Source: Candidatus Woesearchaeota archaeon
GTDB lineage: Archaea; Nanobdellota; Nanobdellia; Woesearchaeales; UBA525
Reading direction: 5' to 3'
DNA length: 23,772 bases
NCBI GenBank assembly: GCA_018221165.1
Contig: JAAOYD010000107.1
Location: 1-23,772 of the forward strand
Every line of letters starts with the position of its first letter. Within the stretch, counting starts at the first letter, position 1. The notes under the pieces were generated by a model that did no database searches, had not been told where the DNA came from, and was given only the letters and a program-made list of their open reading frames with translations. Positions 696 to 23,772 of this stretch are shown piece by piece. Position numbers and translations under genes: made by a program.

Positions 696-770
696 GGGCC
701 TGTAGCTCAGCTTGGATAGAGCACTTCCCTCCTAAGGAAGGGGTCGGGGGTTCAAATCCTCCCAGGTCCG
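696..770 (+). tRNA. tRNA-Arg (anticodon CCU), 75 nt, no encoded CCA, no intron
   Basis: Hand-folded cloverleaf. Acceptor GGGCCTG/CAGGTCC. D arm GCTC-AGCTTGGATA-GAGC. Anticodon arm CTTCC-CTCCTAA-GGAAG, with U33 and anticodon CCT at 731-733. Variable loop GGGTC. T arm GGGGG-TTCAAAT-CCTCC. Discriminator G770. Pair 3:70 is G698:T767. Confidence 0.9.
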
Positions 771-3966: not shown

Positions 3967-4509
3967 TCAGAACTTCTCTCTCATGAGGCCGAGCTTCCAG
4001 CCGAACCAGTGAGAGCCGGCTGCGAGGAGGGCGTTGATCACAAGGAGGAACGCAATTGCGGTCCAGCCAGGCCAGAATACCCAGAACGATATGAGCAAGG
4101 CACCGACGGTGTAGTCGATCTGATCGAATGGTACCCAAGGCTTTCCAGGTTTGATGCCGAACCGGCGCTTGAACAATGATTTACCTACATCACCGATGAA
4201 AATCGCGCCGAACGCGAGGAGGAAGCCGTACCACCATGGCAGCGTTGTGTAGGGGATGAGTGGTGTGGTGACCATGTCGGTAAGGATGTACTTCTGGAGT
4301 AGGAAGACGAATCCGCCGAGTACCGTGCCGCCGATGACGCCACGCCAGGTCTTGTTCAAACCAAGCAAGCGCTTACCTTTCCATTTCGCGCCCAGGTCGA
4401 CCGCCACATCCCATCCAGGGAAAAGCTTCTTCAGTAGTGGCGGCGACGCGTTCGCGATGTATGCAGGCAGGAACCAGTACAGTAGTTGCAGGAACACCAT
4501 AATCACCAT
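3967..4509 (-). CDS. carS: CDP-archaeol synthase (CDP-2,3-bis-O-geranylgeranyl-sn-glycerol synthase)
   Basis: Membrane protein with LLYWFLPAYIANASPPLL...NKTWRGVIGG, typical of the CarS/DUF46 family. I prefer the internal start MVIMVFLQ at 4509, where ATGgTGA overlaps the pssA stop. The track start at 4575 adds a Cys-rich 22-aa extension overlapping pssA. Confidence 0.8.
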   Translation of the reverse strand: MVIMVFLQLLYWFLPAYIANASPPLLKKLFPGWDVAVDLGAKWKGKRLLGLNKTWRGVIGGTVLGGFVFLLQKYILTDMVTTPLIPYTTLPWWYGFLLAFGAIFIGDVGKSLFKRRFGIKPGKPWVPFDQIDYTVGALLISFWVFWPGWTAIAFLLVINALLAAGSHWFGWKLGLMREKF

Positions 4510-5057
4510 TTCGGCACTTTGATTGTGCTTACCATAAGAGCGGCCATGAGGAGTGCAACAAGAGCAAACACCCATTGTTGCAGCGGGATGAAGGTGACTG
4601 CGAGCAACACGAATGCTGCTACGGGAACTGGAATGCCTGCGTAGCTCTTGCCGACAGTTTCGCCAGTCTTGAGCAGGTTGAAGCGCGCCAATCGAAATGC
4701 AGCCGCGACCGCATAGATGGCTGCTGCTGCGAGGACGAGGTCATCGCCAGGATACAAAGTAAGGAGGATGACTCCTGGCGCGACGCCAAATGTGACGACA
4801 TCAGCTAAGGAGTCGAGTTCGCGGCCGAAGTCGTGCGCAAGATTGTATGCTCGAGCAATCTTGCCGTCGAAATAGTCGAAGAGCATGCCTGCCGCGACGA
4901 GAACTATCGCGACGGTTATCTCACCTTTGATTGCGCTGAAGATCGCAGCGATGCCTGCGCAGAGATTGAGTGCGGTAATCAAATCAGGGAAGGTAATTTC
5001 GAAGCCTGCTTTCGTAATAACGGGGAATGATTCATTCTTCTTTAGTTTCTTCACCAT
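4503..5057 (-). CDS. pssA: CDP-alcohol phosphatidyltransferase, archaetidylserine synthase-like
   Basis: 184 aa and membrane-bound. It has the complete motif DG-KI-AR-x8-G-REL-D-SLA-D (DYFDGKIARAYNLAHDFGRELDSLADV). It lies next to psd and carS. Confidence 0.75.
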   Translation of the reverse strand: MVKKLKKNESFPVITKAGFEITFPDLITALNLCAGIAAIFSAIKGEITVAIVLVAAGMLFDYFDGKIARAYNLAHDFGRELDSLADVVTFGVAPGVILLTLYPGDDLVLAAAAIYAVAAAFRLARFNLLKTGETVGKSYAGIPVPVAAFVLLAVTFIPLQQWVFALVALLMAALMVSTIKVPKW

Positions 5058-5677
5058 TTCGCAATCACCGTCTCGCCATCGACAACTACATCTCCTGGTT
5101 TCGCCAGCACTTTCGCTTTGCTTGAAAGCAGCAACGCAACTTGGCTACCAAGATTAATGAACCCAATCACTGAGCCCTTTTCAACTTTTTCATTCTTGTG
5201 AACATGGCAGATGATGCGACGTGCAAGCACTCCTGCGATTTGGACAATCTTAATTTTTCCATGTTTGGTCTTCATGAGTATTTCGTTACGTTCGTTCTGT
5301 AAGGTCAAAAGTTTCTCTGCGTCCTTCACTGCATTGAAGAACTTTCCGTGTTCGTGATGGGTCTTCATAACTTCTCCTTTCATCGGTGCGCGCTGGAAGT
5401 GGACGTGCATTGGCGTCATGACGATGAGGACGAACCAGCCTTTCTTCGCCACGTCCCGCGCGAGGAACTCAACCGAACCTTTATTCCATTTCTTCACCTT
5501 TACCGTCGAGGTGTCGAACTTCTGAACCACCGCGACCGTGCCGTTGGCTGGACTAACCACAACATCACCTTTTGGCGTTTTCCGTTTTGGTCGTCGGCAG
5601 AACCAGTAGCGCCAGAATAGTAAGGAGAGGATGATAAGAGAGACGATGATGAGGACGAACCATGCGAGTAATGTCAT
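5051..5677 (-). CDS. psd: Phosphatidylserine (archaetidylserine) decarboxylase proenzyme, short archaeal type
   Basis: 208 aa with an N-terminal TM helix. There is a C-terminal INLGSQV self-cleavage-type G-S site (Ser codon at 5144-5146), and the beta-rich body is typical of PSD-related proteins. The start overlaps the gatE stop (ATGA at 5674-5677). Confidence 0.75.
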   Translation of the reverse strand: MTLLAWFVLIIVSLIILSLLFWRYWFCRRPKRKTPKGDVVVSPANGTVAVVQKFDTSTVKVKKWNKGSVEFLARDVAKKGWFVLIVMTPMHVHFQRAPMKGEVMKTHHEHGKFFNAVKDAEKLLTLQNERNEILMKTKHGKIKIVQIAGVLARRIICHVHKNEKVEKGSVIGFINLGSQVALLLSSKAKVLAKPGDVVVDGETVIAKW

Positions 5678-10044: not shown

Positions 10045-11058
10045 ATGAAAAAGATCCTGATGATTATTGCTGCGCTCGCAGCGATTATGACACTGAGTCT
10101 CGCCGCAGTCGCGTTCGAGAATCATGTCCGCTGGAACAACCAGCTAAACGAATGCGTCTATTTCTTTGAGGACGATGGTACCAGCGTGAGCTGCTACGTG
10201 CCTGAAGAATACTGCGAAGGCAAGACCAGCAAGGACCTCAACAAGGATGCCGATACGAGCACGTGCTACTACATCCCTCGGAGCCAGCAGGACGACATGG
10301 TGAGCGGTGTATGCGAGGAGTTCGTCGAAGGCGACCTTATCGTACTCCAGTATGACGGCCAGGATCCCGATCTCGATGAACTCACTTACACTTTCGGTGC
10401 ACCCTTCGACACGAACCAGCGCTGGCAAACCGTTCGCGGCGATGCGGGCACCTATGATGTTAAGGTTACTGTTACAGATGGTCAATTCAGCGACCAAGCG
10501 AGCGTGTGCTTTACCATCCTAGAAGCAAACCATCCTCCTGTCTTGAGTGTGTCAAGTATCACAGTCAAGGAAGGCCAAATCGTGAAGCTCAAGCCGACCT
10601 GCTCTGACGAAGACGGCGACGCTGTCAAGATAGAGTACAACGGTTGGATGACCAAGAGCTCCAAAGAGCTCTCGTTCGAAGACGCGGGCGTGTACAGCGT
10701 GACTGTGAAATGCACAGACACTGATGGCGAGTTCGACAGCAAGACCATTCAGGTCACTGTTGAAGATGTCGACCGAGATCCGCTTGTGAGCGGAGCACGC
10801 GATGTCACTGTCAGCGAGACAGAGACTGTGAAGCTTACGTCGACATGCACCGACCCTGATGGCACGGAAACATCCATGACCTACAGCGGCGACATGACGT
10901 CCGCCTCTTGGAAGACCGGCTACGAAGACTCAGGTGTGTACAGCGTGACCATCACGTGCGAGGATGGCACTGGCCGAACAACGAGCCAGACCGTCAGCGT
11001 CACCGTCGAGGAGCGCAACAGGCCGCCCACCATCACCGCGATGGTTGTGCGAGGCTGA
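10045..11058 (+). CDS. Secreted protein with Cys-rich N-terminal region and three tandem Ig-like (cadherin/He_PIG/PKD-type) domains
   Basis: 337 aa. Signal/anchor MKKILMIIAALAAIMTLSLAAVA. There are three ~80-aa repeats (about 10294-10539, 10540-10782, 10783-11030). Each has C.D.DGD/..TY...., a (D/E)(A/S)G(T/V)Y.V.V.(C/V)TD core, and an N/D-x-P(P) boundary. The repeat is visible in the DNA as GGYGTGTACAGCGTGAC at ~10686 and ~10933. SD AGGGGTGA lies 8 nt before the ATG. Confidence 0.7.
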   Translation: MKKILMIIAALAAIMTLSLAAVAFENHVRWNNQLNECVYFFEDDGTSVSCYVPEEYCEGKTSKDLNKDADTSTCYYIPRSQQDDMVSGVCEEFVEGDLIVLQYDGQDPDLDELTYTFGAPFDTNQRWQTVRGDAGTYDVKVTVTDGQFSDQASVCFTILEANHPPVLSVSSITVKEGQIVKLKPTCSDEDGDAVKIEYNGWMTKSSKELSFEDAGVYSVTVKCTDTDGEFDSKTIQVTVEDVDRDPLVSGARDVTVSETETVKLTSTCTDPDGTETSMTYSGDMTSASWKTGYEDSGVYSVTITCEDGTGRTTSQTVSVTVEERNRPPTITAMVVRG

Positions 11059-14315: not shown

Positions 14316-15245
14316 TTATGGGTTTGTGAGGAGCCAGAGACGGTCGAATTCTGCCCGGAAACGGGCTGTTAAGGCTTGATTATGGATAATCAGCACATTC
14401 TCGTCATTCCTCGTGTTACCGTTCTTTGTGGGGTTGTAGCTGCCCATGATGACAGTCTTGCCATCGATAATGAATACTTTGTGATGCATGGTTTGTGGAT
14501 TTGAATCAAAGCGCACATCAAGTCCTGCGGCAAGGAGCCTTTGGTATTCAGAGTATGCGTTTTGTTGCCGTTTCTCAAATACTCCCTGTACAAGAATCCC
14601 GTCCTTGGCTTTCTCAATGAGTAGTTTTCCGATGGGGTCGCTGGTGAAGCTGAAGGTCATGAAGTGGATAGTAGTAATGGCCTTCCCTAATTCCTCTAAA
14701 ACCTGTTTTTCACAGTCATCTTCGGGACAGAAATAGTTCTCGATGAGAAATCCTTCACCATCCTCATGTATTTTATGTTTTATTTTTTTATTTCTTGTTT
14801 GTTGTTCTTTCTTCCCCTTTAACTCCTCAAACTCGTCAAGATAATTCTGCGCAATAACTTCCCCTTCAATAATTAAGATGCCATTGTCGTTCTTGAACAA
14901 TCCGTTCGCGGTCGGATTCGTACTTCCAGTAATTACTATTCTCTCGTCGAGGATGCAAAACTTGTCATGCATCAGTCCGCCGTGCGATGCTTTGACACTG
15001 ATGCCAAAACCATCATAGTTCTCTTTGAAAACCAACACCTCTACGTTTTTGTGTTTGAGAAGTTGCTCGAGTGGATCATAATCGAGGTCGTAGAACGCAC
15101 ACTTGATTTCTTCAGAATTGTTAATCGCGGTGAGCAGTCCTTGTTTGCAGTCATCAACTTGACAAAAGAGCAAGGTTATCTCACCTGTTTGTGTTGGAAT
15201 GGCGCAACAGGACAGGAAGAGTAAGGTGAGTAGCAGGATTCTCAT
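14316..15245 (-). CDS. Secreted/lipid-anchored phospholipase D superfamily protein with two HKD motifs (phospholipase or Nuc-like nuclease)
   Basis: 309 aa. Signal peptide MRILLLTLLFLSCC with a lipobox-like LSC. HKD-1 is HDKFCILDERIVITGSTNPTANG and HKD-2 is HHKVFIIDGKTVIMGSYNPTKNG. Confidence 0.8.
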   Translation of the reverse strand: MRILLLTLLFLSCCAIPTQTGEITLLFCQVDDCKQGLLTAINNSEEIKCAFYDLDYDPLEQLLKHKNVEVLVFKENYDGFGISVKASHGGLMHDKFCILDERIVITGSTNPTANGLFKNDNGILIIEGEVIAQNYLDEFEELKGKKEQQTRNKKIKHKIHEDGEGFLIENYFCPEDDCEKQVLEELGKAITTIHFMTFSFTSDPIGKLLIEKAKDGILVQGVFEKRQQNAYSEYQRLLAAGLDVRFDSNPQTMHHKVFIIDGKTVIMGSYNPTKNGNTRNDENVLIIHNQALTARFRAEFDRLWLLTNP

Positions 15246-16000: not shown

Positions 16001-16483
16001 CTATCCGAAGTAGCCACGTTCGCCCTGGAGGGGCTGCTCTTTCTTCCAGTCAGAATGCAATTTAGAGATAATCGTCCGTAGCCAGTCCTTTTTGGCTTCC
16101 CAACGTGGAATAGCGCTTTTCAGAAATCTTCGATACGCTTCCTCGTTTGCTTCGATATCTGCCATGGTGAATTGCCTGAGGACGCTCATGAGCTCACGAT
16201 AGGACTTCGCGACCTGCTCAATCTCGGCTTCAGTGAAGAAACTACACTCATTCATCGCCGCTAATCCTGAATCTGGCTGAAGTAGCTCCTCGAGTAGCTG
16301 AGCGAAGCCTGCCACACGATCTTTCACTTTCTTCGCCATTTCTCGGGCAATAGAGGGTGTTTCTTCGTTGATTGTCAGAAGTTCGAACTCTTCCATCAGC
16401 GATTTCGTCTGTTCAAAGCCGCAAGCGAGCAATTCCTTCTCCAAATCCTCTTTAAGGGTCGGAAGCTTCTTCTCTTTGTCCAT
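16001..16483 (-). CDS. Hypothetical alpha-helical acidic protein, divergent from the RHH cassette
   Basis: 160 aa. TATA (minus ATATAAA, 16509-16515) lies 26 nt upstream of ATG 16483, giving leaderless geometry. I recognise no motif. Confidence 0.55.
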   Translation of the reverse strand: MDKEKKLPTLKEDLEKELLACGFEQTKSLMEEFELLTINEETPSIAREMAKKVKDRVAGFAQLLEELLQPDSGLAAMNECSFFTEAEIEQVAKSYRELMSVLRQFTMADIEANEEAYRRFLKSAIPRWEAKKDWLRTIISKLHSDWKKEQPLQGERGYFG

Positions 16484-16674: not shown

Positions 16675-16821
16675 ATGGTAGCGACGACAGCAACAGTGAA
16701 CATCAGGCTTCCGAAGGAAGTCTCCGACATTCTAGATACTCTTGTCGAGCGTAAGCTCTTTGCCAACCGCAGCGAAGCTATCCGTGAATTCTGCAGGGAC
16801 TATCTCGAGGTGAGGCGCTGA
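16675..16821 (+). CDS. Ribbon-helix-helix (CopG/Arc/MetJ-type) DNA-binding protein, 48 aa
   Basis: Below the track size cut-off. Hand translation gives MVATTATVNIRLPKEVSDILDTLVERKLFANRSEAIREFCRDYLEVRR*. This is the classic RHH pattern: beta strand VNIRLP, helix, then (S/N)RSEAIREa..yL. The stop TGA shares its A with the next ATG (16821). Confidence 0.7.
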   Translation: MVATTATVNIRLPKEVSDILDTLVERKLFANRSEAIREFCRDYLEVRR

Positions 16822-17096
16822 TGCCTGCTGAGCAAATCGTCACGGTTCGCATGCCTGCTAGCCTCGTCGAAGCGCTCAAAGCCAGAATAGCACCAGATCA
16901 TTACTCTGACCTCTCGGAACAGGTGCGTAGCATCGTCAGGAAAGGCTGCCTCCACTACGTTAACCCAGTTACGAGTGAAATTAAGGAACTAAAAACCCAA
17001 CTCAAAGCGGAGCTCATGCAAGAGTCAGGAGATGACCGCGCGAAAGCCCTCATTGACGAGCTCAAGAATCTGCTCAAGGGAGGTGACGCGTCATGA
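16821..17096 (+). CDS. Second RHH-like protein with C-terminal coiled-coil extension, 91 aa
   Basis: IVTVRMPASLVEALKARIAPDHYSDLSEQVRSIVRKG fits a beta-strand/helix/helix RHH core, followed by the amphipathic helix EIKELKTQLKAELMQE...LIDELKNLLKGG. GAGGTGA lies 8 nt upstream, and its stop overlaps the next start (ATGA). Confidence 0.6.
   Translation: MPAEQIVTVRMPASLVEALKARIAPDHYSDLSEQVRSIVRKGCLHYVNPVTSEIKELKTQLKAELMQESGDDRAKALIDELKNLLKGGDAS
17079..17086 (+). promoter_or_regulatory. Shine-Dalgarno GGAGGTGA embedded in the last codons of the upstream gene
   Basis: 6-nt spacer to ATG 17093. The context GGAGGTGACGCgtCATGA is nearly identical to that at 20039-20056. Confidence 0.7.
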
Positions 17097-20056
17097 ATCG
17101 CATCATCTCTTTCATCATTATCTTCACACTCTTTTTCGCTTCCCCGGTACTGGCAAGTATCGACCTTGTCACACCATTAGCTGACGCGGCCACGAACGAC
17201 CAGAACGCAACCTTTGAGTACTATCCGAGTATACAAGGTATCGAACGCTGCACTCTTGATCTCGAGGGAGAGGAATTCCTTGACGTGACTATTGATAACG
17301 AGGAGTTCAACACTTTTACAGTTGTCAATATCGCTCCCGGCAACTACGATTGGAGCGTCAGTTGCGAGAACAGCACAGCAACAGAGCAATCCGGACAACG
17401 AACGCTGCTCATCGATTGGACACCACCAGAACTCACTATTATCGAACCGGTCGAGAACGCTACCATTGAAGGCTCTATTATCAAGGTGACTGCGAGCGAC
17501 GACAATGACGATGAGGTTGCCTGCAGTGCTTATCACGGTGCGACCTTCCTTGCGAGCTTTACTATCGAGGATGGTGGACTCAAGAACGTTGACCTTGGAC
17601 TTGGCACAGGCACCTATACTATCACTGTTACTTGTTTCGACGAAGCGACGAACGGCGCAATCAAGCAACACACTTTCACGGTCGTTGAGCCCATCCCCAA
17701 CCTATTCCTTGAGCTCTCAACGAACAAGCAGCTCTATTCCCTTGGTGAATCCATAGCGCTCACCATTGACACGCTTAATGAGGCGAGTGTGAGCATTGAA
17801 GTCTGTCCGGACACACAGGGATTCGTCAAATGCTTTACCCCCCTCATCGATGACGGATTTCCCCAGACAGTAGTACTTCCATACACAAATAGCACGGGGA
17901 CCTACCTCATCGATGGCACTGCCGCCCTCGGTGACCAAACAGTCTATTACACGATTACTTACACTGTCGAGAACACTATGACAGTTGCAATAGCATCTGA
18001 TGTGGCGCCAGCATACAACCGTGAGATAACGCTCACCGCGACGGCAAACGGTGCCCTTGGCGAAGTCACATATGTCTGGACACTACATGATGATACTGAA
18101 GTGAACGGAAGTAAAATTGACATCACTTATAGTGATGCTGGCAGCTACACAGAAACAGTTGTCGCTACTGACGAGAGCGGGAACTCAGTTGAAGCTCAAT
18201 TCACTGCGACTATTGAGACTGTGTACGACATTGAAGTCCACGTCAAGGACGCAACGACGAATGAAGTACTCGGCGGTGCGACTGTCCAGTTTGAGGACAC
18301 AGAAGATCATTCATTCACAGCAGATACTGACACTAATGGCAAGACATACTTCTCGCTCGAGAAAGGAGATTACGATCTCTTCGTTTCGAAAATAGGCTAT
18401 GAGTACAACCTGCAGGAAGTCAAGCTCGACAAACAGCAAACCTTCGTCATCTCGCTCACTTCCACTGGACAGTATAAGCCACTTGTTACGATAGTCTCAC
18501 CAGGACCGGATGCTACCACAAGCATTCCGACAATCATCAGCTTCACGGTCAATCACGACCAAGAGACTGTTTGCACACTCTCATACATCTCTGAAGGAAG
18601 TCAATGGCTCGAGCAATCAGGCATCGTCACGGTTCCAGCGGACGGTGAAGGTGCTTTCGACCTTACTGCCCTCGAAGAGAAGACCTATAGATTCAAGATT
18701 GGGTGTGAAGACGCACAGGGTTTCCTCGGTGAGAGTGAAGAGCGTAGTTTCACTGTCGACGAAGATGCAGAAGATGAGACCGAGCTTGTTACTGATGCAT
18801 GGGGTAATGACCCGCTAGATATCATTGACCGTGCATACGGAGCATATGACTCATTCAACGCAGACCAGCGGACACTCGCTGACCTCCTCTCTTGGGAAGA
18901 CTCAGTGAAACAACAGAAGCGCGCTATCGAACGCGCGTTGCGCGACAGAGATGCAGTACGGTTCAGGAATGATCTTACAGATGCTGAGAAGCAGACGAAG
19001 ACAAAAGAATTTGACCGCACCATCACTGAAGCACAACAGACGACTCCATTTGACCTTGCAGTTCTAGAGAAAAAGAAGCGGGTCGAGAACCTCAACAGTG
19101 CTGACATCGCAGCCATCGTCGAAAGTATCATTGAATCTAAGGAATACACACTCACTGCTAAACAAGCGCAGGGATGGCTTGATGAGCTCCAGCAAGGGTT
19201 CACGAAAGAGACGACTGTCTTTCGTGGGAAGATACTCATGGCAGATGGTACTGAGCGAGACATAAGTCTCATCACATACACATTCACGTACAAGAACCCT
19301 GACGCGCTCGAGGACCACACGCTCTACGAACTCATCCCCGAGCAAATGGCTGCAGATGCAAAGAGTGTTATCACTTTGAACAAGCACGTGGTCACTAAGA
19401 CTCAACCACCGGTGCTTGAATTCCAGCCCGAGAAGACAATCACGTATTATGTTGAGGTAGACGTGCCAATCAGCACACTCCTCGGAGCCCAGACAGTCTT
19501 GCTCAAGAAACTCACCGTGTCAGACATGGAAGAAGTGACAGGAAAGGCATTCCTGTCCAACTCAACGAGATTTGACTGGAAGCTCAGTCTTGCGCTGACG
19601 ATACTGCTCACGATTCTCATCGCTGCTGCTCGTCGCTTCGATGCGGTTAGACACTTCAAGTATCTTTTCTATGCTGAATCGAAGAAGAAGTCACTCCACG
19701 CAATCCAGACCATCATCAATGACGGTCACTCACACCTTGACGCGGGCGACCTTGAACGCGCGATGATGCGATACAAGGAAGCGAAGCTCTCCTACGAACA
19801 CTTGAGTGCGTATGCGCAGAACGAGGTTCTCCCCGACATACTCCGTCTTCACGAATTCCTCGACGACGCCTACTTCCGGAAACTACTGAACCGTATCGGT
19901 GAAGCGATTGATGCGGGCAGGATGGCTGACGCGATTGAGGACTACGCTCGACTCGAAGGAACCTTCGAACACCTTCCCGCTGAGAAGCAGAATGATCTCA
20001 TCATGGTCGTAAATGAGATTTCGCGCAAGCTCCACCTTGGAGGTGACGCTGCATGA
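17093..20056 (+). CDS. 987-aa type-I membrane surface protein: signal peptide, multiple Ig-like/PKD-like/CarboxypepD_reg-like modules, coiled coil, one C-proximal TM helix, 138-aa helical cytosolic tail
   Basis: Signal peptide MNRIISFIIIFTLFFASPVLASID. Cys-paired Ig-like modules with D-W-T-P-P-E-L-T-I boundaries. PKD-like module ~17978-18217 (ITLTATANG...VTYVWTL.D....G..I.ITYSDAGSYTETVVATDESGN). CarboxypepD_reg-like module ~18230-18457 (VHVKDATTNEVLGGATVQFED...TDTNGKTYFSLEKGDYDLFVSKIGY). TM WKLSLALTILLTILIAAARRF at 19577-19639. Confidence 0.85.
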   Translation: MNRIISFIIIFTLFFASPVLASIDLVTPLADAATNDQNATFEYYPSIQGIERCTLDLEGEEFLDVTIDNEEFNTFTVVNIAPGNYDWSVSCENSTATEQSGQRTLLIDWTPPELTIIEPVENATIEGSIIKVTASDDNDDEVACSAYHGATFLASFTIEDGGLKNVDLGLGTGTYTITVTCFDEATNGAIKQHTFTVVEPIPNLFLELSTNKQLYSLGESIALTIDTLNEASVSIEVCPDTQGFVKCFTPLIDDGFPQTVVLPYTNSTGTYLIDGTAALGDQTVYYTITYTVENTMTVAIASDVAPAYNREITLTATANGALGEVTYVWTLHDDTEVNGSKIDITYSDAGSYTETVVATDESGNSVEAQFTATIETVYDIEVHVKDATTNEVLGGATVQFEDTEDHSFTADTDTNGKTYFSLEKGDYDLFVSKIGYEYNLQEVKLDKQQTFVISLTSTGQYKPLVTIVSPGPDATTSIPTIISFTVNHDQETVCTLSYISEGSQWLEQSGIVTVPADGEGAFDLTALEEKTYRFKIGCEDAQGFLGESEERSFTVDEDAEDETELVTDAWGNDPLDIIDRAYGAYDSFNADQRTLADLLSWEDSVKQQKRAIERALRDRDAVRFRNDLTDAEKQTKTKEFDRTITEAQQTTPFDLAVLEKKKRVENLNSADIAAIVESIIESKEYTLTAKQAQGWLDELQQGFTKETTVFRGKILMADGTERDISLITYTFTYKNPDALEDHTLYELIPEQMAADAKSVITLNKHVVTKTQPPVLEFQPEKTITYYVEVDVPISTLLGAQTVLLKKLTVSDMEEVTGKAFLSNSTRFDWKLSLALTILLTILIAAARRFDAVRHFKYLFYAESKKKSLHAIQTIINDGHSHLDAGDLERAMMRYKEAKLSYEHLSAYAQNEVLPDILRLHEFLDDAYFRKLLNRIGEAIDAGRMADAIEDYARLEGTFEHLPAEKQNDLIMVVNEISRKLHLGGDAA
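19577..19639 (+). other. Transmembrane helix of the 987-aa protein (WKLSLALTILLTILIAAARRF)
   Basis: 21 hydrophobic residues followed by RRF..R.FK, consistent with the positive-inside rule and a cytosolic tail. Confidence 0.7.
20039..20046 (+). promoter_or_regulatory. Shine-Dalgarno GGAGGTGA embedded in the last codons of the 987-aa gene
   Basis: 6-nt spacer to ATG 20053. Context is GGAGGTGACGCtgCATGA. Confidence 0.7.
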
Positions 20057-23000
20057 GGACGATAACTCGACAACGCCGCGCTGCCTTCTGGCTTGGCATT
20101 CTCCTCCTCACGATTTTCGCGATTAAAGGCCTAGTTATTGTTAGCCAGTTCATCGGCTACGCAACGAGTTCTGATGCAGAGGCAGGAACAATCACCCAAC
20201 TCATCATCCGCCATGAAGTACCAACGGAAAACTGGGCTGCGGTATTCGGTGTTGCTGTGCGCGTACCTGGTTATCTCAATCAACAGTTTGAGGATTTCAC
20301 CGCGGGTGACATGGAAGAAACTAACCTCCTCTTCGATTGCATGGAAAGCAACATAGAACATGAGGTCTTTGTGACAGAGTCTGACCCTGCACTTTTGGAC
20401 ATCTCGAACATGTTCTCTATCACTGTTGCGGAGCTTGATGCCTATTATGGACGTGATTCTAATGACTTTGATAGCGCGACGAACACCTTCACGCAGGCTA
20501 TTAGTTTCCAATACGGTTCAACGACAGTGAATACTGTTGGTACTGTAGCCTACAAGCTCGGCGAATCACCCCCGACGACTTTTAGGATAGCGGCGGCGCA
20601 ACTCTCTGATGGCTCACCGGTGTATGTGGCGATAGTAACGAACTTCACTGATGGGTATAATGGGCGACTCTACAACTACCAGCTCCTCCTTCCTGCTTCG
20701 ATAAATGTGACGACTCGCTATTACTTTTGGACTGACCCTAATGATATCTGCCCTGAAGGTGAAGGGCAAGAGCCCAACAAGGGTGTCGTATTCGGCAAGG
20801 TCACGACAACAACTGGCATTCCTATTCCTGGCGTCATCGTTGAGGTGGCTGGCGTTACGAACATCACCGACATTAATGGAAACTATACTATCAGAACTCA
20901 AGAAGGAACCCACAATATCTTTGCAATCAAGACAGGGTTCGATGTCTACAAGAACAACGTTACAGTAATCGCGAACAACAAAACGCGTCATGACATCATC
21001 CTCGAAGAGACAGTCATCCCGAACGACAACACAGGTATCGGCCCTGGACAGGACAACCCGGGGGATGATGTTGGGCCTGCACAACAGGAAGGAATCGGTC
21101 CAGGGCAGGATGTTGGTCCTGGTGAGGCACCGCTCGTCCCATTCGTGCAGCAGCCGAAAGTCATCGAAGGCAAGGATTTCATAATTAGCCTTACAGAGTT
21201 GAACAGAAAATTGCGCCTCGGCCAGTTCGTGCAGGACCGAATCTACATCTACAATTTCCGGAAGACCCCTGTGACAATCACCTTAGCGGTTAACGGCACG
21301 AATATCAGCCGTCTTATCACCGTTGATAAGAACGAGATTGTCGTCGACCCGAACGGGAAGGGTGAGTTCGTGCTCACAATCTTTGGTGTTGGTAGCACGG
21401 GCATCTTCAACGGCACGATTGAGTTGGATGGTGACATCAACGCTTCTATTCCTGTGCGTATAGATATCTTGCCGCGCGAACAACTTCCTATAGAGGCACT
21501 TCATATAGAGGTGGAGACTGCAGAGAAGCGATACTACCCGAATGACCTGGTCAGAGTGAAGACTGACTTACGTAACATGCTCATTGATCAGCAATATCCT
21601 GTTAGGCTCTTCTTTACAGTGCAGAACCCTGAAGGCGATGAGACTATCTGGAGCTACGAGACGAACGTGCATATCAAGACTGCATTCAGTCTTATCAAGA
21701 GCTTCAAGCTACAGAACAGCGTCAAGAGTGGTGATTACATCCTCCGTGTTAGCGCTACATATTTGGGATTGAGCAGCGGGACGAGCACGATATTCCATGT
21801 CGCTGTGCCGTTCTGGCAACGTAGTCTCTTCGGTTTGAAGTATTGGCTCTGGTTCCTTATCCTAGCGTTCATCGCAGCTGGCATCGGCGCGTTCTTCTAT
21901 ATCAGGAAGAAGATTGAGGAGAAGAAGAAATATCACCTCAAGGTCGACTACGACGAGCTGCCGAAACCAGGACCGCGCAGCATTTATGTCGGGAAGATTG
22001 CTGAGACTGACAAGACGACCTATTTCAATCTCGAGAACTTCAAGACGCACACTATCGTCGCTGGCTCGACAGGTGGTGGTAAATCGGTGAGTGCCCAAGT
22101 TATCATTGAGGAAGCTCTTGACAAGGATATTGCGGTCGTCGTCTTTGACCCGACGGCACAATGGACTGGTATGCTCCGGCCGTGCAAGGACAAGACTATG
22201 CTCGCACTTTACCCACTCTATGGTATGAAGAAGACTGACGCGAAGGCTTTCCCAGGAAACATCCGACAGATTAACAACGCGCGTGAGAAGATTGACATCA
22301 GGAAGTATGCGAAACCAGGCGAGATTCAGGTGTTCTGCGGGCACAAGCTCGATCCGAAGGACATGGACATCATGGTCGCGAATGCAATCAGGGAAATTTT
22401 CCACGCGAGCTTCCCCGAAAACAAGCTCCTCAAGATATTCTTCGTCTTTGATGAGGTGCACCGACTCCTGCCGAAATTCGGTGGCAGTGGCGATGGCTTC
22501 CTCCAAATCGAGCGTGGTTGTCGTGAATTCCGTAAGTGGGGTCTTGGCATGATGCTAATCTCACAGGTCCTGAGCGACTTCGTCGGTACAATCAAGGCGA
22601 ACATCAACACAGAAATCCAGATGCGAACCCGCGACGAAGGTGACCTCGAACGTATCAGGCAGAAGTACGGCGAGGATGTGTTGCGCAGTCTGGTGAAAGC
22701 AACAGTTGGTACAGGTATGGTGGAGAATCCCGCCTATAACAGAGGTCAGCCGTACTTCGTTGGTTTCAAACCACTCAAGCACAGCGTCGAGAGGTTGACT
22801 GATGAGGAGATTGAGCAGTACAACGAGTATAACGATAGGATTGACAACCTCTACTACAGTCTCGAACAGCTTGAAGAGGCGAAGATAGATGTTTTCGATC
22901 TCAAGCTTGAACTCAAGCTCGCCCTCGATAAAGTAAAAACTGGAAATTTCAACATGGTCAAGATATATTTGGAAGGCCTCGAGCCGCGCATTGACAAGCA

Positions 23001-23772
23001 ATGGCAAAAACTCGGGAGGAAGCCGAAGGTGATGGAACGCGAGCTCGTCGACATGAGCGAGATCCAGGAAGATCTGAAGAAGGCACAGGCCGATCGCGAT
23101 AAGGCTATCGCCGCTGAGGAGAAGGAAGGCGCTGACAAAAAGGGCGCAGAGGAAAAGAAGGAATGGGGTTGGAAGGACGATGTTTCACCCGACAAGATTC
23201 TCAACCTGAAGAACGGCATGATTGTCATCAACCTCGCGTCACTCTACGATGAGGTCAGTGCGATGAAAGATGCGGACCTGCCGAACGAATTCCTACCAGA
23301 GCCACCAGAGCCAGAAGAGGGCGAGGAACCGAAGCAGCCAATCAACACCTTTGCAGAATGGGTAGTGAACGCGACTGGTGACACCAAGCTTGGCTATGCA
23401 CTTGCGGCCTGCACGACGAAGGAAGAGATGATAGCGTTGCTAGATAAGAAGAAGGAAGGTCAAGAGATTCCTGATGCGAAGCCACCAGCGTGGTTTGTCA
23501 AGCAGGCTGGCGCCGCTGTTGTCGAGGAGAAAGAAGCTGCAGAAGAGAAGAAAGAGGAAGTGAAGGAAGCGGCACCTGCGGAAGAGCAGAAAGAAGATGT
23601 GACACCACAACCTGCAGAAACTTCTGCAGCTGAACAAACAACACCTGAGATTCCAACACCTGAGACTCCTGAAGCACAAGCTCCAGAACAGCCTGCACAA
23701 CCTGCTCCAGTCCAACCTGAACAACCAAAACAAGAAACTCCCACTACAGAAACTCCCACTACAGAAACTCCC
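20053..23772 (+). CDS. Bitopic membrane protein of more than 1240 aa: TM1 - ~580-aa ectodomain - TM2 - cytosolic HerA/FtsK/VirB4-type (DUF87-like) P-loop ATPase - coiled coil - small helical domain - acidic Pro/Glu/Thr-rich tail. 3' end lies beyond the window
   Basis: Absent from the ORF track because there is no stop in the window. I translated the frame by hand: 1240 sense codons from ATG 20053, whose start overlaps the upstream stop (ATGA). The N-terminus is MRTITRQRRAAFWLGILLLTIFAIKGLVIV. Walker A is KTHTIVAGSTGGGKSV. Also present are VVVFDPTAQW, Walker B KIFFVFDEVHRLLP, REFRKWGLGMMLISQVLSDF and NTEIQMRTRDEGD. All minus-strand track ORFs between 20131 and 23759 are shadows of this frame. 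Confidence 0.85.
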   Translation, partial: MRTITRQRRAAFWLGILLLTIFAIKGLVIVSQFIGYATSSDAEAGTITQLIIRHEVPTENWAAVFGVAVRVPGYLNQQFEDFTAGDMEETNLLFDCMESNIEHEVFVTESDPALLDISNMFSITVAELDAYYGRDSNDFDSATNTFTQAISFQYGSTTVNTVGTVAYKLGESPPTTFRIAAAQLSDGSPVYVAIVTNFTDGYNGRLYNYQLLLPASINVTTRYYFWTDPNDICPEGEGQEPNKGVVFGKVTTTTGIPIPGVIVEVAGVTNITDINGNYTIRTQEGTHNIFAIKTGFDVYKNNVTVIANNKTRHDIILEETVIPNDNTGIGPGQDNPGDDVGPAQQEGIGPGQDVGPGEAPLVPFVQQPKVIEGKDFIISLTELNRKLRLGQFVQDRIYIYNFRKTPVTITLAVNGTNISRLITVDKNEIVVDPNGKGEFVLTIFGVGSTGIFNGTIELDGDINASIPVRIDILPREQLPIEALHIEVETAEKRYYPNDLVRVKTDLRNMLIDQQYPVRLFFTVQNPEGDETIWSYETNVHIKTAFSLIKSFKLQNSVKSGDYILRVSATYLGLSSGTSTIFHVAVPFWQRSLFGLKYWLWFLILAFIAAGIGAFFYIRKKIEEKKKYHLKVDYDELPKPGPRSIYVGKIAETDKTTYFNLENFKTHTIVAGSTGGGKSVSAQVIIEEALDKDIAVVVFDPTAQWTGMLRPCKDKTMLALYPLYGMKKTDAKAFPGNIRQINNAREKIDIRKYAKPGEIQVFCGHKLDPKDMDIMVANAIREIFHASFPENKLLKIFFVFDEVHRLLPKFGGSGDGFLQIERGCREFRKWGLGMMLISQVLSDFVGTIKANINTEIQMRTRDEGDLERIRQKYGEDVLRSLVKATVGTGMVENPAYNRGQPYFVGFKPLKHSVERLTDEEIEQYNEYNDRIDNLYYSLEQLEEAKIDVFDLKLELKLALDKVKTGNFNMVKIYLEGLEPRIDKQWQKLGRKPKVMERELVDMSEIQEDLKKAQADRDKAIAAEEKEGADKKGAEEKKEWGWKDDVSPDKILNLKNGMIVINLASLYDEVSAMKDADLPNEFLPEPPEPEEGEEPKQPINTFAEWVVNATGDTKLGYALAACTTKEEMIALLDKKKEGQEIPDAKPPAWFVKQAGAAVVEEKEAAEEKKEEVKEAAPAEEQKEDVTPQPAETSAAEQTTPEIPTPETPEAQAPEQPAQPAPVQPEQPKQETPTTETPTTETP
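20083..20145 (+). other. TM1 / signal anchor of the ATPase protein
   Basis: AFWLGILLLTIFAIKGLVIVS preceded by RQRR, which predicts an N-in orientation. Confidence 0.65.
20782..21003 (+). other. CarboxypepD_reg-like beta-sandwich module in the ectodomain
   Basis: GVVFGKVTTTTGIPIPGVIVEVAGVTNITDINGNYTIRTQEGTHNIFAIKTGFDVYKNNVTVIANNKTRHDIIL matches the G.V.D..G.P..GA.V.......T.TD.NG.Y.l..l..G.Y.l...k.GY pattern. Confidence 0.6.
21034..21126 (+). repeat. Gly/Pro-rich linker with internal duplication (GIGPGQDN...GIGPGQDVGPG)
   Basis: Read from codons 21034-21126. Confidence 0.7.
21841..21903 (+). other. TM2 of the ATPase protein (YWLWFLILAFIAAGIGAFFYI)
   Basis: Hydrophobic 21-mer followed by RKKIEEKKK, which places the ATPase in the cytosol. 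Confidence 0.7.
21976..22785 (+). other. HerA/FtsK-type ATPase domain (Walker A 22063-22086, Walker B 22438-22455)
   Basis: Motif order and spacing: H-T-hhh-G-S-T-G-x-G-K-S, then hhhDP...W/Y, then hhhh-D-E-h-H, then RK.G.G..hhSQ...D, then NT.I..R. This is as in DUF87/HerA-like translocases. Confidence 0.7.
23734..23772 (+). repeat. 15-nt tandem repeat GAAACTCCCACTACA (ETPTT), 2.6 copies, truncated by the window end
   Basis: Read directly; it lies in frame in the C-terminal low-complexity tail. Confidence 0.85.

What the first reader, a model, noticed from the sequence alone, without database searches (positions are those of the whole stretch)
20053..23772. Giant ORF missing from the ORF track: ectodomain fused through a second TM helix to a HerA/FtsK-like ATPase
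The last 3.7 kb of the window shows only short minus-strand ORFs in the track (for example 20614..21084, 21862..22506, 22561..23007). Frame 1 of the plus strand, however, is open for 1240 codons from ATG 20053 to the window edge and carries clear protein motifs. Placing a DUF87/HerA-type motor behind a large extracellular region is unusual, because HerA/FtsK relatives usually have at most short N-terminal TM anchors. That extracellular region is made of:
- an N-terminal ~240-aa domain of unknown type
- a CarboxypepD_reg-like module
- a duplicated GIGPGQD Gly/Pro linker
- two further beta-rich modules

After the motor there is a coiled coil (22790-23100), then a ~80-aa helical module (NLKNGMIVINLASLYDEVSAMKDADLPNEF...INTFAEWVVNATGDTKLGYALAACTTKEEMIALL), then an acidic Pro-rich tail.
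Basis: seen in the sequence. Interest (0 to 1): 0.8.

Follow-up and report, generated by a model that had tools for sequence, protein, structure and literature searches.

The report
Surface protein fused to HerA-type motor
The end of the window encodes a real, edge-truncated membrane protein of a tiny symbiotic (DPANN) archaeon that joins an outside adhesin-like region to an inside HerA-type ring ATPase; it is a compact relative of the published "SPEARE" giant surface proteins, whose function is still unproven.

Summary
Frame +1 from 20053 is open for 1240 codons to the window edge. It encodes a signal/anchor helix, a ~560-aa beta-rich ectodomain, a second TM helix, a HerA-clade P-loop ATPase, a conserved helical domain, an OrfY/DUF5752-like module and a Pro/Glu/Gln-rich tail. 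The ORF list omits it only because it runs off the edge.

It is an exact match to an NCBI [quoted passage not shown]. Full-length orthologs (1135-1582 aa) lie in a conserved operon:
- two RHH proteins;
- a single-pass PKD/Ig partner;
- this ATPase protein;
- OrfY-module proteins;
- a ~350-aa coiled-coil protein.

The same ATPase core (50-92% identity) sits behind ectodomains of ~50 to ~5,600 aa in at least 345 protein clusters and at least 517 genomic loci. Almost all named ones are DPANN archaea.

The architecture is not new. It matches the nanohaloarchaeal SPEARE proteins (Hamm 2019; Reva 2023). The window's cytoplasmic part is 50% identical (E 4e-121) to the C-terminus of a 4,079-aa Nanosalina giant protein.

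The most likely function is a ring translocase coupling surface adhesion to macromolecule (probably DNA) transport, which is inferred and not shown. Novelty: new member of a known kind. Interest about 0.5.

The parts
16675..16821 (+). Small ribbon-helix-helix protein (48 aa), first gene of the conserved operon
   Evidence: Pfam RHH_1 E 2.6e-5, above the cut-off. A homolog lies at the same position in 64 of 85 loci.
16821..17096 (+). 91-aa protein: N-terminal RHH-like strand-helix-helix plus a C-terminal amphipathic helix. Its start overlaps the stop of the previous gene.
   Evidence: Sequence. Conserved upstream in 64 of 85 loci. Weak NCBIfam hits to TprA and NikR RHH regulators.
17093..20056 (+). 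987-aa partner: signal peptide, PKD / CarboxypepD_reg / Big_13 ectodomain, one TM (aa ~830-852), and a ~135-aa helical cytoplasmic tail. ATGA overlap with the ATPase gene.
   Evidence: Pfam; TM prediction; conserved immediately upstream in 72 of 85 loci.
20053..23772 (+). The finding: an edge-truncated gene (1240 codons) for a SPEARE-type membrane-anchored HerA-clade ATPase
   Evidence: Open frame. 100% match to an NCBI partial protein from a Woesearchaeota archaeon, and 56 full-length homologs.
20077..20163 (+). N-terminal hydrophobic helix (aa 9-37), either a signal anchor or a cleavable signal peptide ending in conserved GYA
   Evidence: Hydropathy; alignment A1; helix 6-33 in the model.
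20164..20772 (+). N-terminal ectodomain of unknown type (aa 38-240): beta-rich, with invariant C96 and C233
   Evidence: pLDDT 80-93. No Pfam hit and no PDB sequence hit. Found in the ATPase gene of 69 of 85 loci.
20788..21003 (+). CarboxypepD_reg-like beta-sandwich (aa 246-317)
   Evidence: Pfam PF13620 E 1.2e-7; model strands 243-312.
21016..21156 (+). Disordered Gly/Pro linker (aa 322-368) with GIGPGQD at aa 328 and 347
   Evidence: pLDDT below 50 for residues 323-373.
21178..21801 (+). Two membrane-proximal Ig/FnIII-like beta-sandwiches (aa 376-473 and 483-583)
   Evidence: Model. Foldseek hits to tandem Ig/FnIII proteins such as RbmA. Present in all 85 loci.
21841..21909 (+). Transmembrane helix (aa 597-619) followed by RKKIEEKKK
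   Evidence: In 112 of 115 relatives the last TM ends about 53 aa before Walker A.
21970..22788 (+). HerA-clade P-loop ATPase core (aa 640-912): Walker A G671-S678; Walker B FFVFDEVH 796-803; REFRKWGLG..SQ 824-838
   Evidence: Pfam DUF87; PDB HerA alignments; Foldseek; mean pairwise identity 0.76 across orthologs.
22801..23142 (+). Family-conserved three-helix domain (aa 917-987) plus a long helix (aa 1001-1030).
   Evidence: DSSP of the model, pLDDT about 90. It aligns to the extreme C-terminus of the Nanosalina giant protein.
23182..23436 (+). OrfY/DUF5752-like module (aa 1044-1128), copy 1. This copy carries a Pro/Glu-rich insertion.
   Evidence: Family HMM E 9.6e-17. The module profile hits PDB 4cso OrfY at E 1.7e-8. 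Pfam DUF5752 is above cut-off in orthologs.
23455..23772 (+). Pro/Glu/Gln/Thr-rich low-complexity linker, cut by the window edge
   Evidence: Composition. In orthologs it leads to a second OrfY-like module or to TPR repeats.

Best explanation
**What it is.** The gene encodes a compact Woesearchaeal member of the SPEARE-type protein family of DPANN archaea. It is a single-pass (type I-like) envelope protein. An adhesin-like ectodomain is covalently joined, through one TM helix, to a cytoplasmic HerA-clade ASCE ATPase that begins about 25 residues below the membrane.

**How it most likely works.**
- Shown: the domain order, the topology signals, intact catalytic motifs, and fold similarity to hexameric HerA/FtsK translocases.
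- Inferred: the ATPase assembles into a ring under the membrane. This bundles six (or twelve) TM helices and six ectodomains, probably together with the single-pass partner encoded just upstream and the cytoplasmic coiled-coil protein encoded downstream.
- Inferred: ATP hydrolysis in the ring drives a polymer through or at the membrane where the variable ectodomain contacts another cell or surface.
- My preferred substrate is DNA or another nucleic acid, for uptake by a nucleotide-auxotrophic symbiont. The C-terminal OrfY-like modules and the two RHH proteins would act as nucleic-acid-handling or regulatory adaptors.

**Sub-probabilities.**
- Identity as a SPEARE-type HerA-clade membrane ATPase: about 0.9.
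- Ring translocase moving some macromolecule: about 0.55.
- Substrate is DNA: about 0.35.
For: **A real gene with many relatives.**
- Real gene and orthologs.
- Topology.

**ATPase identity.**
- Pfam DUF87 E 9e-11.
- HerA-only PDB sequence hits aligning the FFVFDEVHRLLP and REFRKWGLG..SQ motifs to HerA's EEAH and REGRKFG..SQ.
- Confident model (pLDDT 84) whose best PDB matches are hexameric HerA, then FtsK and the TcpA coupling protein.
- Walker A Lys, Walker B Asp-Glu and many Arg/Lys residues are invariant across 18-32 orthologs.

**Conserved motor, variable ectodomain.**
- Mean pairwise identity is 0.76 for the ATPase against 0.42-0.53 for the ectodomain.
- The same core (50-92% identity) sits behind N-terminal regions of ~50 to ~5,600 aa, with the TM always about 53 aa before Walker A.

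**Link to SPEARE.**
- 50% identity, E 4e-121, to the C-terminus of a 4,079-aa Ca. Nanosalina giant protein that also carries the ResIII-type hit.
- Published description of the architecture and of its relatives in Woesearchaeota.

**Conserved operon.**
- Operon conserved across loci.
- The coiled-coil partner lies directly downstream even in distant loci (E 1e-50 to 1e-58).

**Nucleic-acid hints.**
- Two RHH proteins in the operon.
- The OrfY module matches PDB 4cso, deposited as a 'transcription factor'.
- Membrane-bound HerA-clade relatives CedB/CedD are needed for DNA import.
Against: - No experiment exists for any member's ATPase function.
- Oligomeric state was not predicted.
- No polytopic membrane protein that could form a channel is conserved in the operon.
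- No nuclease, relaxase or ssDNA-binding protein is encoded in the operon.
- The RHH proteins may be ordinary transcription regulators.
- The 'transcription factor' label of 4cso is only a depositor's name, and I found no paper on it.
- The published proposal for the nanohaloarchaeal relatives is effector secretion, not DNA uptake.
- The ATPase scores far below every curated family cut-off for HerA, CedD, VirB4 and TraD, so function cannot be transferred by orthology.
Confidence: 0.5

Rival explanations
1. It is a T4SS-like secretion 'straw'. The ectodomain binds the host, and the VirB4/HerA-like ATPase exports protein effectors from the symbiont into the host. This is the proposal of Reva et al. 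2023 for the nanohaloarchaeal giant proteins.
For: - Published interpretation of homologous proteins.
- Weak Pfam/NCBIfam P-loop hits to TrwB, TraD and TraC.
- Foldseek hit to the TcpA coupling protein.
- The downstream small proteins share the OrfY module with the ATPase tail and could be adaptors or substrates.
Against: - No VirB4 N-terminal domain.
- AAA_10 scores 15.7 bits against a cut-off of 27.5.
- No VirB6/CedA-like polytopic channel or pilin in the Woesearchaeal operon.
- No second VirB4-family ATPase downstream, unlike the nanohaloarchaeal loci described.
- The best matches are to HerA rather than VirB4.
Confidence: 0.2
2. It does not transport anything. The ATPase ring does mechanical or assembly work on the envelope, using ATP to organise, tension, retract or remodel the ectodomains and a surface structure. 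That structure would be built with the partner protein, the coiled-coil protein and the giant Ig-rich protein often encoded downstream.
For: - All conserved membrane components are single-pass, with no channel subunit.
- An obligate cytoplasmic coiled-coil partner is present.
- Giant Ig/CARDB surface proteins lie just downstream in many loci.
- The operon sits among housekeeping genes.
Against: As far as I know, members of the FtsK-HerA superfamily thread polymers through a ring rather than acting as remodelling scaffolds (established knowledge, Iyer et al. 2004, not readable here). There is no precedent within this superfamily.
Confidence: 0.15
3. It is an archaeal FtsK analogue: a membrane-anchored DNA pump for chromosome segregation or division in DPANN cells.
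For: - A membrane-tethered FtsK/HerA-type motor followed by a Pro/Gln-rich linker and a small C-terminal domain recalls the FtsK layout (FtsK layout from established knowledge).
- The orthologous operon sits in the same place beside housekeeping genes in several genomes.
- The coiled-coil partner gives SMC/Rad50-like coiled-coil hits.
Against: - Ectodomains are large and hypervariable, and several paralogs occur per locus or genome, which fits surface interaction rather than division.
- Pfam FtsK_SpoIIIE is below its cut-off, at 20.0 against 24.
- The SMC/Rad50 hits are generic coiled-coil similarity far below the cut-offs.
Confidence: 0.07
4. It is a restriction-enzyme-like or anti-phage HerA defence module. 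This covers the original 'RE' reading of SPEARE and the HerA-Sir2 / HerA-DUF4297 type systems.
For: - ResIII Pfam hits in relatives.
- PADLOC hits to mad8 (1.5e-16) and to HerA models.
- Hamm et al. 2019 proposed DNA degradation.
Against: - The hits cover only the P-loop core.
- No nuclease, Sir2 or DUF4297 partner is found in the protein or the operon.
- Reva et al. 2023 re-analysed SPEARE and found no endonuclease domain.
- The genomic context is housekeeping and syntenic across genomes, not a defence island.
Confidence: 0.04

Closest known systems
SPEARE giant surface proteins of Nanohaloarchaeota (Hamm et al. 2019, PMC6642349; re-analysed by Reva et al. 2023, PMC10266531)
   Same: - Signal peptide, extracytoplasmic adhesion-type beta-sandwich domains, a single TM towards the C-terminus, then a conserved cytoplasmic ATPase and a helical/coiled-coil end.
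- The window's aa 623-980 are 50% identical (E 4e-121) to the C-terminus of a 4,079-aa Ca. Nanosalina protein of this type.
- The same spurious ResIII signal is present.
- The lineage distribution matches the one the authors reported.
   Different: - Much smaller ectodomain: about 560 aa, against thousands.
- No laminin-G, protease-like or toxin-like regions, and a family-specific N-terminal domain instead.
- Extra C-terminal OrfY/DUF5752 modules after the helical domain.
- Different neighbours: two RHH proteins, a single-pass partner, OrfY-module proteins and a coiled-coil protein, rather than a second VirB4-family ATPase.
- I could not align it to the published accessions themselves.
HerA (HerA-NurA DNA-end-resection translocase; e.g. 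Sulfolobus solfataricus 4d2i)
   Same: - Best sequence and fold match for the RecA-like core.
- Shares Walker A, the DE(V/A)H Walker B motif and the R(E)xRK(W/Y/F)G...SQ motif.
   Different: - No room for the N-terminal HAS-barrel, because the TM helix ends about 25 residues before the core.
- No NurA neighbour.
- 22-25 bits against cut-offs of 800-970 for the NCBIfam HerA equivalogs.
- Membrane-embedded and carries an ectodomain.
CedB/CedD of the crenarchaeal Ced DNA-import system
   Same: TM-anchored HerA-clade ATPases acting at the membrane in DNA uptake. CedD is the top NCBIfam hit.
   Different: - Only 30.5 bits against a cut-off of 600, covering the P-loop region only.
- Ced ATPases have a VirB4-like N-terminal domain and work with the polytopic CedA/CedE and a pilus. 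None of these is present here.
- Ced ATPases have no ectodomain.
VirB4/TraG/VirD4 ATPases of type IV secretion
   Same: Same superfamily. Weak P-loop hits to TrwB_AAD_bind, T4SS-DNA_transf, TraD and TraC. The published annotation of SPEARE relatives uses this label.
   Different: The hits are limited to about 40-60 residues around Walker A. No VirB4 N-domain is found, AAA_10 is below its cut-off, and there are no T4SS structural genes nearby.
FtsK/SpoIIIE and T7SS EccC/EssC membrane-anchored pumps
   Same: A membrane-tethered ring motor of the same superfamily. FtsK motor structures are among the Foldseek hits (about 1e-7). A low-complexity linker is followed by a small terminal domain.
   Different: - Pfam FtsK_SpoIIIE is below its cut-off.
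- The anchor is one or two TM helices instead of FtsK's four-helix N-terminal membrane domain, and there is no gamma domain or FHA domain (FtsK/EccC anatomy from established knowledge).
- The large ectodomain has no counterpart.
OrfY of Thermoproteus tenax (PDB 4cso) / Pfam DUF5752
   Same: The ~72-aa module (NG..EL...M..F..HV...NDFA.WI) matches both repeats of 4cso (E 1.7e-8). It also matches Pfam DUF5752 in orthologs and in the downstream genes.
   Different: Here the module is appended once or twice to an ATPase, or occurs in small operon-encoded proteins. The function of OrfY is unknown to me, and no paper was found.

Membership tests
FtsK-HerA superfamily of ASCE pumping ATPases | Walker A GxxGxGK[ST] and Walker B hhhhDE | tested here: met
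   GSTGGGKS at aa 671 and FFVFDEVH at aa 796-803. K677, D800 and E801 are invariant in 18 and 32 orthologs.
FtsK-HerA superfamily of ASCE pumping ATPases | RecA-like fold most similar to HerA/FtsK-type ring translocases | tested here: met
   Model pLDDT 84. Foldseek against PDB: HerA 4d2i 4e-10, other HerA structures 1e-8 to 1e-7, FtsK motor 9e-8, TcpA 2e-7.
FtsK-HerA superfamily of ASCE pumping ATPases | Assembly into a hexameric ring with a central pore | not testable with these tools
HerA proper (HerA-NurA) | N-terminal HAS-barrel domain before the ATPase core | tested here: not met
   The TM helix ends at aa 619 and the DUF87 match starts at aa 644, leaving no space for a barrel domain.
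HerA proper (HerA-NurA) | Score above the curated equivalog cut-off, and a NurA/Mre11/Rad50 neighbourhood | tested here: not met
   NF040937 scores 25.2 against 800, and NF040819 scores 22.8 against 970. The operon neighbours are RHH proteins, a single-pass partner, OrfY-module proteins and a coiled-coil protein.
VirB4 / T4SS ATPase | VirB4 N-terminal domain plus an AAA_10-type core above cut-off, with T4SS membrane partners | tested here: not met
   AAA_10 scores 15.7 against 27.5, and no CagE_TrbE_VirB hit is found. TraC scores 23.9 against 567. No polytopic partner is present in 47 complete operons.
FtsK/SpoIIIE | FtsK_SpoIIIE motor above cut-off, and a C-terminal gamma domain | tested here: not met
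   PF01580 scores 20.0 against 24, covering only aa 643-688. No FtsK_gamma hit is found.
Ced system ATPases (CedB/CedD) | Equivalog-level similarity, and association with CedA/CedA1/CedA2 | tested here: not met
   CedD NF053655 scores 30.5 bits against a cut-off of 600. No Ced-like membrane proteins are present in the operon.
SPEARE-type proteins of DPANN archaea | Conserved intracellular portion (P-loop ATPase giving ResIII/HerA-type hits) shared with the nanohaloarchaeal giant proteins | tested here: met
   - 50% identity over 364 aa, E 4e-121, to the C-terminus of P0199, a 4,079-aa Ca. Nanosalina protein.
- P0199 carries ResIII (5e-9) and DUF87 hits.
- Not tested against the published accessions NAR1_1133, AOV94740.1 or SVXNc_0300, which I could not obtain.
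SPEARE-type proteins of DPANN archaea | Extracytoplasmic N-terminal part, a TM towards the C-terminus, and a cytoplasmic C-terminal part ending in a coiled-coil/helical domain | tested here: met
   Topology signals; models. The TM lies about 53 aa before Walker A, as in 112 of 115 relatives. The helical domain aligns to the end of P0199.
SPEARE-type proteins of DPANN archaea | At least one laminin-G domain plus multiple adhesion domains in the ectodomain, and very large size (Hamm et al. 2019) | tested here: not met
   No laminin-G hit is found. Only one CarboxypepD_reg and two Ig-like sandwiches are present. Length is about 1,430 aa by the closest ortholog. Published SPEARE versions of 655 and 717 aa show that size is not strict.
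HerA-based anti-phage defence systems | HerA ATPase paired with an effector (Sir2, DUF4297, nuclease) in a defence locus | tested here: not met
   PADLOC hits cover the ATPase core only, and none of the neighbours match. The surrounding genes are housekeeping.
OrfY / DUF5752 module | Sequence-profile match to Pfam DUF5752 or to the OrfY structure | tested here: met
   The family module profile matches 4cso at E 1.7e-8, on both repeats. Orthologs P0021 and P0033 score 35.7 and 33.5 bits against a cut-off of 23. The window copy matches the family HMM at 9.6e-17 but carries an insertion and was not reported by Pfam itself.

The most novel reading that the evidence does not exclude
The compact Woesearchaeal operon and its giant paralogs could be versions of one undescribed envelope-spanning machine found across most DPANN lineages. 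In that machine, a HerA-type ring ATPase is fused directly to a hypervariable host-binding ectodomain and paired with an obligate coiled-coil protein. It would form the conduit through which these genome-reduced symbionts pull DNA or nucleotides (or other macromolecules) out of host cells. The ~1,400-aa Woesearchaeal form would be the tractable minimal model for it.
Probability: 0.3. Interest if true: 0.85.

Novelty: new member of a known kind. Interest (0 to 1): 0.5.

Why it matters
How DPANN archaea obtain nucleotides, lipids and other building blocks from their hosts is an open question. SPEARE-type proteins are the leading but untested candidates for the contact machinery.

This analysis shows four things:
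- The SPEARE cytoplasmic motor is a distinct, very highly conserved HerA-clade ATPase.
- It is spread over at least 345 protein clusters and at least 517 genomic loci.
- It always pairs with an uncharacterised coiled-coil protein.
- In Woesearchaeota it exists in a compact ~1,400-aa form inside a tidy six-gene operon.

That gives a protein small enough for expression, structure determination and biochemistry. It also gives a defined partner list, so the competing ideas (DNA uptake, effector secretion, mechanical role) can be tested directly. For annotation, it suggests that 'DUF87 domain-containing protein' entries of this type in DPANN genomes could be labelled as SPEARE-type membrane ATPases.

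Tried and rejected
- **N-terminal ectodomain (aa 38-240):** no Pfam family and no meaningful PDB sequence hit. The whole-ectodomain Foldseek search was dominated by generic tandem Ig/FnIII proteins, so the fold type remains unassigned.
- **Coiled-coil partner family:**
  - It has no Pfam, NCBIfam or PDB relative beyond generic coiled-coil noise.
  - Its N-terminal 'MGLF..KKK' motif reminded me of PspA/ESCRT-III amphipathic N-termini. No PspA or Snf7 hit appeared, so I do not claim that link.
- **Defence system:** rejected, because there are only ATPase-core hits, no effector and a housekeeping context.
- **Restriction-enzyme reading:** rejected, because the ResIII hit covers the P-loop only and no nuclease is present. 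This agrees with Reva et al..
- **Short ~400-aa forms as the ancestral state:** at least one (P0232) is a truncated gene call of a 2,019-aa ORF. P0278, however, appears to be a genuinely soluble paralog.
- **Literature searches that found nothing:** DUF5752, OrfY, DUF87 with DPANN, and HerA with DPANN. The SPEARE link was found only through a search on giant surface proteins.
- **Iyer et al. 2004:** could not be read.
- **Not done:** a proper phylogeny among HerA, VirB4, CedB/D, FtsK and TraB, for lack of reference sequences.

Full report
**1. Observation**

Translating window 20053-23772 in frame +1 gives 1240 codons without a stop. The probability of this by chance at the window's base composition is about 1.5e-26. 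The six-frame ORF list shows only short minus-strand ORFs over this stretch, because ORFs that run off the source are not listed. The 'missing giant ORF' is therefore a listing rule, not biology.

The product is an exact match to an NCBI entry named 'DUF87 domain-containing protein, partial [Candidatus Woesearchaeota archaeon]' on a 23,772-bp contig. It has 56 full-length homologs of 1135-1582 aa at 47-73% identity.

The rest of the window holds ordinary archaeal housekeeping genes:
- GatD and GatE
- CDC48
- Ham1
- CDP-archaeol synthase
- a CDP-alcohol phosphatidyltransferase
- phosphatidylserine decarboxylase
- a PLD-like protein
- tRNA-Arg

The gene is therefore chromosomal and not part of a mobile or defence island.

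**2. Anatomy**

Numbering is aa of the window ORF; nt = 20053 + 3(aa-1).

| Region | aa | Evidence |
|---|---|---|
| Hydrophobic helix after RQRR, ending in a conserved GYA (signal anchor or cleavable signal peptide) | 9-37 | |
| Beta-rich N-terminal domain with an invariant Cys pair (C96, C233); no Pfam or PDB sequence relative | 38-240 | |
| CarboxypepD_reg sandwich | 246-317 | |
| Disordered Gly/Pro linker carrying the two GIGPGQD copies | 322-368 | |
| Two Ig/FnIII-like sandwiches | 376-473, 483-583 | |
| TM helix followed by RKKIEEKKK | 597-619 | |
| ATPase core | 640-912 | |
| Conserved three-helix domain | 917-987 | |
| Long helix | 1001-1030 | |
| OrfY/DUF5752-like module | 1044-1128 | |
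| Pro/Glu/Gln-rich tail, cut by the window edge | 1135-1240 | |

Three features fit an outside-N, inside-C topology:
- The sequence after the TM follows the positive-inside rule.
- There are ten NxS/T sequons in the ectodomain against one in the cytoplasmic half.
- The ectodomain carries an invariant Cys pair.

Full-length orthologs continue through the low-complexity linker. They end in a second OrfY-like module or, in one subgroup, in TPR repeats.

**3. The motor**

Sequence evidence:
- Pfam gives DUF87 (HerA central domain) at E 9e-11. All other P-loop families (TrwB, HerA_C, FtsK_SpoIIIE, T4SS-DNA_transf, AAA_10) are weaker, and most fall below their cut-offs.
- NCBIfam hits (CedD, anti-phage HerA, TraD, HerA, TraC) are all tens of bits against cut-offs of hundreds.
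- A sequence search of the PDB finds only HerA-type proteins. The alignments match FFVFDEVHRLLP and REFRKWGLG..SQ to HerA's EEAH and REGRKFG..SQ motifs.

Structural evidence:
- An AlphaFold model of aa 621-1135 is confident (pLDDT 84, pTM 0.71).
- Its best PDB matches are Sulfolobus HerA (4e-10) and other HerA structures. These are followed by the FtsK motor (about 1e-7) and the TcpA coupling protein.

There is no room for HerA's N-terminal barrel, because the core starts about 25 residues after the TM. The motor is thus a distinct, membrane-embedded branch on the HerA side of the FtsK-HerA superfamily. I did not build a phylogeny.

**4. A large family with one motor and many ectodomains**

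- A full scan of 1.84 billion representatives with the 295-aa core found 1049 hits: 484 at E<=1e-10 and 345 at E<=1e-30.
- The best 150 are 50-92% identical over the whole core. They occur in proteins of 253 to 6,253 aa, with the core starting anywhere from about residue 80 to about 5,650.
- In 112 of 115 testable cases, the last TM helix ends about 53 residues before Walker A.
- Among orthologs the ATPase is far more conserved than the ectodomain (mean pairwise identity 0.76 against 0.42-0.53).
- Named members are from Woesearchaeota, Nanoarchaeota, Pacearchaeota, Micrarchaeota, Aenigmarchaeota, Altiarchaeota and Nanohaloarchaea.
- A scan of one genome per species found at least 517 confirmed loci. 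The best 80 are all from DPANN MAGs, apart from labels that look like pipeline mis-assignments.

**5. Operon**

Across 85 loci the gene order is conserved:
1. a small RHH protein;
2. a 91-aa RHH-plus-helix protein;
3. a ~1000-aa single-pass partner, with signal peptide, PKD/Ig ectodomain, TM and helical cytoplasmic tail;
4. the ATPase protein;
5. one or more proteins carrying the same OrfY-like module;
6. a ~350-400-aa coiled-coil protein;
7. often, a giant Ig-rich surface protein.

The window holds the first four of these. Successive genes overlap by 1 or 4 nt at their stop and start codons.

The coiled-coil protein is the universal partner. A family HMM finds it directly downstream of the ATPase next to a 4,862-aa Woesearchaeal paralog, in a Micrarchaeota locus (L086), and in a third, unnamed locus that holds a soluble paralog (L087). 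E-values are 8e-50 to 3e-58. The RHH proteins, the partner and the OrfY modules are absent from those three loci. The coiled-coil family has no Pfam or PDB relative, and its named members are all from DPANN-type archaea.

No polytopic membrane protein is conserved in 47 complete operons.

**6. The helical module**

A profile of 25 diverse copies hits PDB 4cso, 'OrfY protein, transcription factor', at E 1.7e-8 on both of its repeats. This agrees with the Pfam DUF5752 hits in orthologs and downstream genes. I found no paper on OrfY or DUF5752 in the library, so the depositor's label is only a lead.

**7. Comparison with what is known**

Hamm et al. 2019 described the nanohaloarchaeal 'SPEARE' proteins (655-8,553 aa). 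These are mostly extracytoplasmic, with a TM near the C-terminus and a conserved intracellular portion giving type III restriction-enzyme hits. The authors reported similar sequences in Woesearchaeota, Aenigmarchaeota, Micrarchaeota and Altiarchaeales.

Reva et al. 2023 re-analysed these proteins. They found no nuclease. They described a TM followed by a cytosolic VirB4/TraG-like ATPase and a terminal coiled coil, and proposed a type-IV-secretion-like 'straw'.

I tested the link directly:
- Window aa 623-980 align end-to-end with residues 3717-4079 of a 4,079-aa Ca. Nanosalina protein (50% identity, E 4e-121).
- That protein has Ig, CarboxypepD_reg and NEW3 ectodomain repeats and the same ResIII signal.

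The window gene is therefore a compact Woesearchaeal member of this published kind.

Some features differ or are, as far as I could search, undescribed:
- the small ectodomain with its own N-domain, and no laminin-G domain;
- the OrfY modules;
- the RHH / partner / OrfY / coiled-coil operon;
- the universal coiled-coil partner;
- the closer resemblance to HerA than to VirB4.

**8. Mechanism**

Shown:
- architecture and topology signals;
- intact and invariant catalytic motifs;
- a ring-translocase fold;
- extreme conservation of the motor against variable ectodomains;
- the conserved partners.

Inferred: a ring under the membrane couples ATP hydrolysis to movement of a polymer at a site where the ectodomain binds another cell.

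I favour nucleic acid as the substrate (about 0.35), for three reasons:
- As far as I know, membrane-associated members of this superfamily mostly move DNA. The one example I could check here is CedB/CedD, HerA-clade ATPases needed for DNA import.
- The operon carries two RHH proteins and OrfY-type modules.
- DPANN cells need external nucleotides (general knowledge of the group).

The evidence against is real:
- no channel subunit;
- no DNA-processing enzyme;
- no experimental data.

Rival explanations and rough weights:

| Rival | Weight | Comment |
|---|---|---|
| Effector secretion | about 0.2 | The published view for the nanohaloarchaeal proteins |
| Non-transport mechanical or assembly role | about 0.15 | |
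| FtsK-like segregation pump | about 0.07 | |
| Restriction or defence | about 0.04 | Contradicted |

**9. Verdict**

- Novelty: a new member of a known kind, with some features I did not find described.
- Interest: moderate, 0.5. It is a tractable, widespread form of a protein family at the centre of an open question, but it is not a new kind of system.

Noticed in passing
window 3967-5677 (-), 885-1979 (+), 14316-15245 (-): A run of membrane-lipid head-group genes sits in a DPANN genome: CDP-archaeol synthase (CarS), a CDP-alcohol phosphatidyltransferase and phosphatidylserine decarboxylase, plus an LPG_synthase_TM protein and a PLD-like protein. DPANN archaea are usually described as lacking lipid synthesis. 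This organism can at least activate and decorate archaeol.
   Followed up: partly
window 10045-11058 (+): A 337-aa protein with PKD, Big_9 and cadherin-like domains. It is another likely surface protein, unrelated in position to the operon.
   Followed up: no
window 16001-16483 (-): A 160-aa acidic helical protein is transcribed divergently from the operon. It is conserved at the same place in 22 loci, often beside adenylate kinase. Its only hit is a weak one to the BAF-type SAM domain (E 0.005). It is unclear whether it belongs to the system.
   Followed up: partly
L001 14771-15856; L003 13240-14295; L085 24596-25489; L086 8554-9414; L087 8606-9961: The universal coiled-coil partner family starts with a short hydrophobic-basic motif (MGLFSKK, MFWFKKK, MGLLNNFFKKK) that looks like an amphipathic membrane-binding N-terminus. 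It has a well-conserved ~220-aa core, with no Pfam or PDB relative. The resemblance to PspA/ESCRT-III N-termini comes from memory only and is untested.
   Followed up: partly
L087 7001-8254 and 1-5839: A 417-aa soluble paralog of the ATPase (no TM, starting at the juxtamembrane motif) lies 1.2 kb downstream of a 2,462-aa membrane paralog on a 1.2-Mb contig. This suggests mixed or paired ATPase assemblies.
   Followed up: partly
L086 2042-8101: The 366-aa database protein P0232 (Micrarchaeota) is a truncated gene call. The open frame is 2,019 aa and includes a large N-terminal region. Short database entries of this family should be treated with caution.
   Followed up: yes
L058, L059, L062, L067-L070, L073, L075, L081-L084: A shorter ortholog class (~770-810 aa) lacks the N-terminal domain and the CarboxypepD_reg module but keeps the membrane-proximal sandwiches. 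It pairs with a larger upstream partner of about 1,180-1,460 aa, as if ectodomain mass had moved between the two genes.
   Followed up: partly
L003 16264-19894; L004 14977-19867; L017, L028, L032, L033, L040, L045, L053, L055, L060 downstream regions: Giant Ig/CARDB/Big_13-rich surface proteins (about 2,200-5,200 aa) are encoded 1.4-2.2 kb (up to about 4.4 kb in L003) downstream of the ATPase gene, just past the coiled-coil gene, in many loci. They may be a further component or cargo of the system.
   Followed up: partly
cluster of P0196: One 90%-identity cluster of the ATPase family contains members labelled Hadesarchaea/Hadarchaeales, including a 7,818-aa protein with a PGF-pre-PGF domain. 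Either the family extends beyond DPANN or these are binning errors.
   Followed up: no
L009, L010, L014, L018, L028 and others; L038: Many loci with the complete DPANN-type operon come from MAGs titled 'uncultured Methanosarcinales archaeon', and one from 'Candidatus Saccharibacteria bacterium'. These are probably taxonomic mislabels from automated pipelines.
   Followed up: no
window 23281-23346 (aa 1077-1098): The window's OrfY-like module has a Pro/Glu-rich insertion (LPNEFLPEPPEPEEGEEPKQPI). The insertion replaces the otherwise nearly invariant HV...KNDF stretch. The closest orthologs P0002, P0007 and P0010 share it, so this copy may have diverged in function.
   Followed up: no
window 696-770 (+): tRNA-Arg (CCT), the only tRNA in the window.
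   Followed up: no
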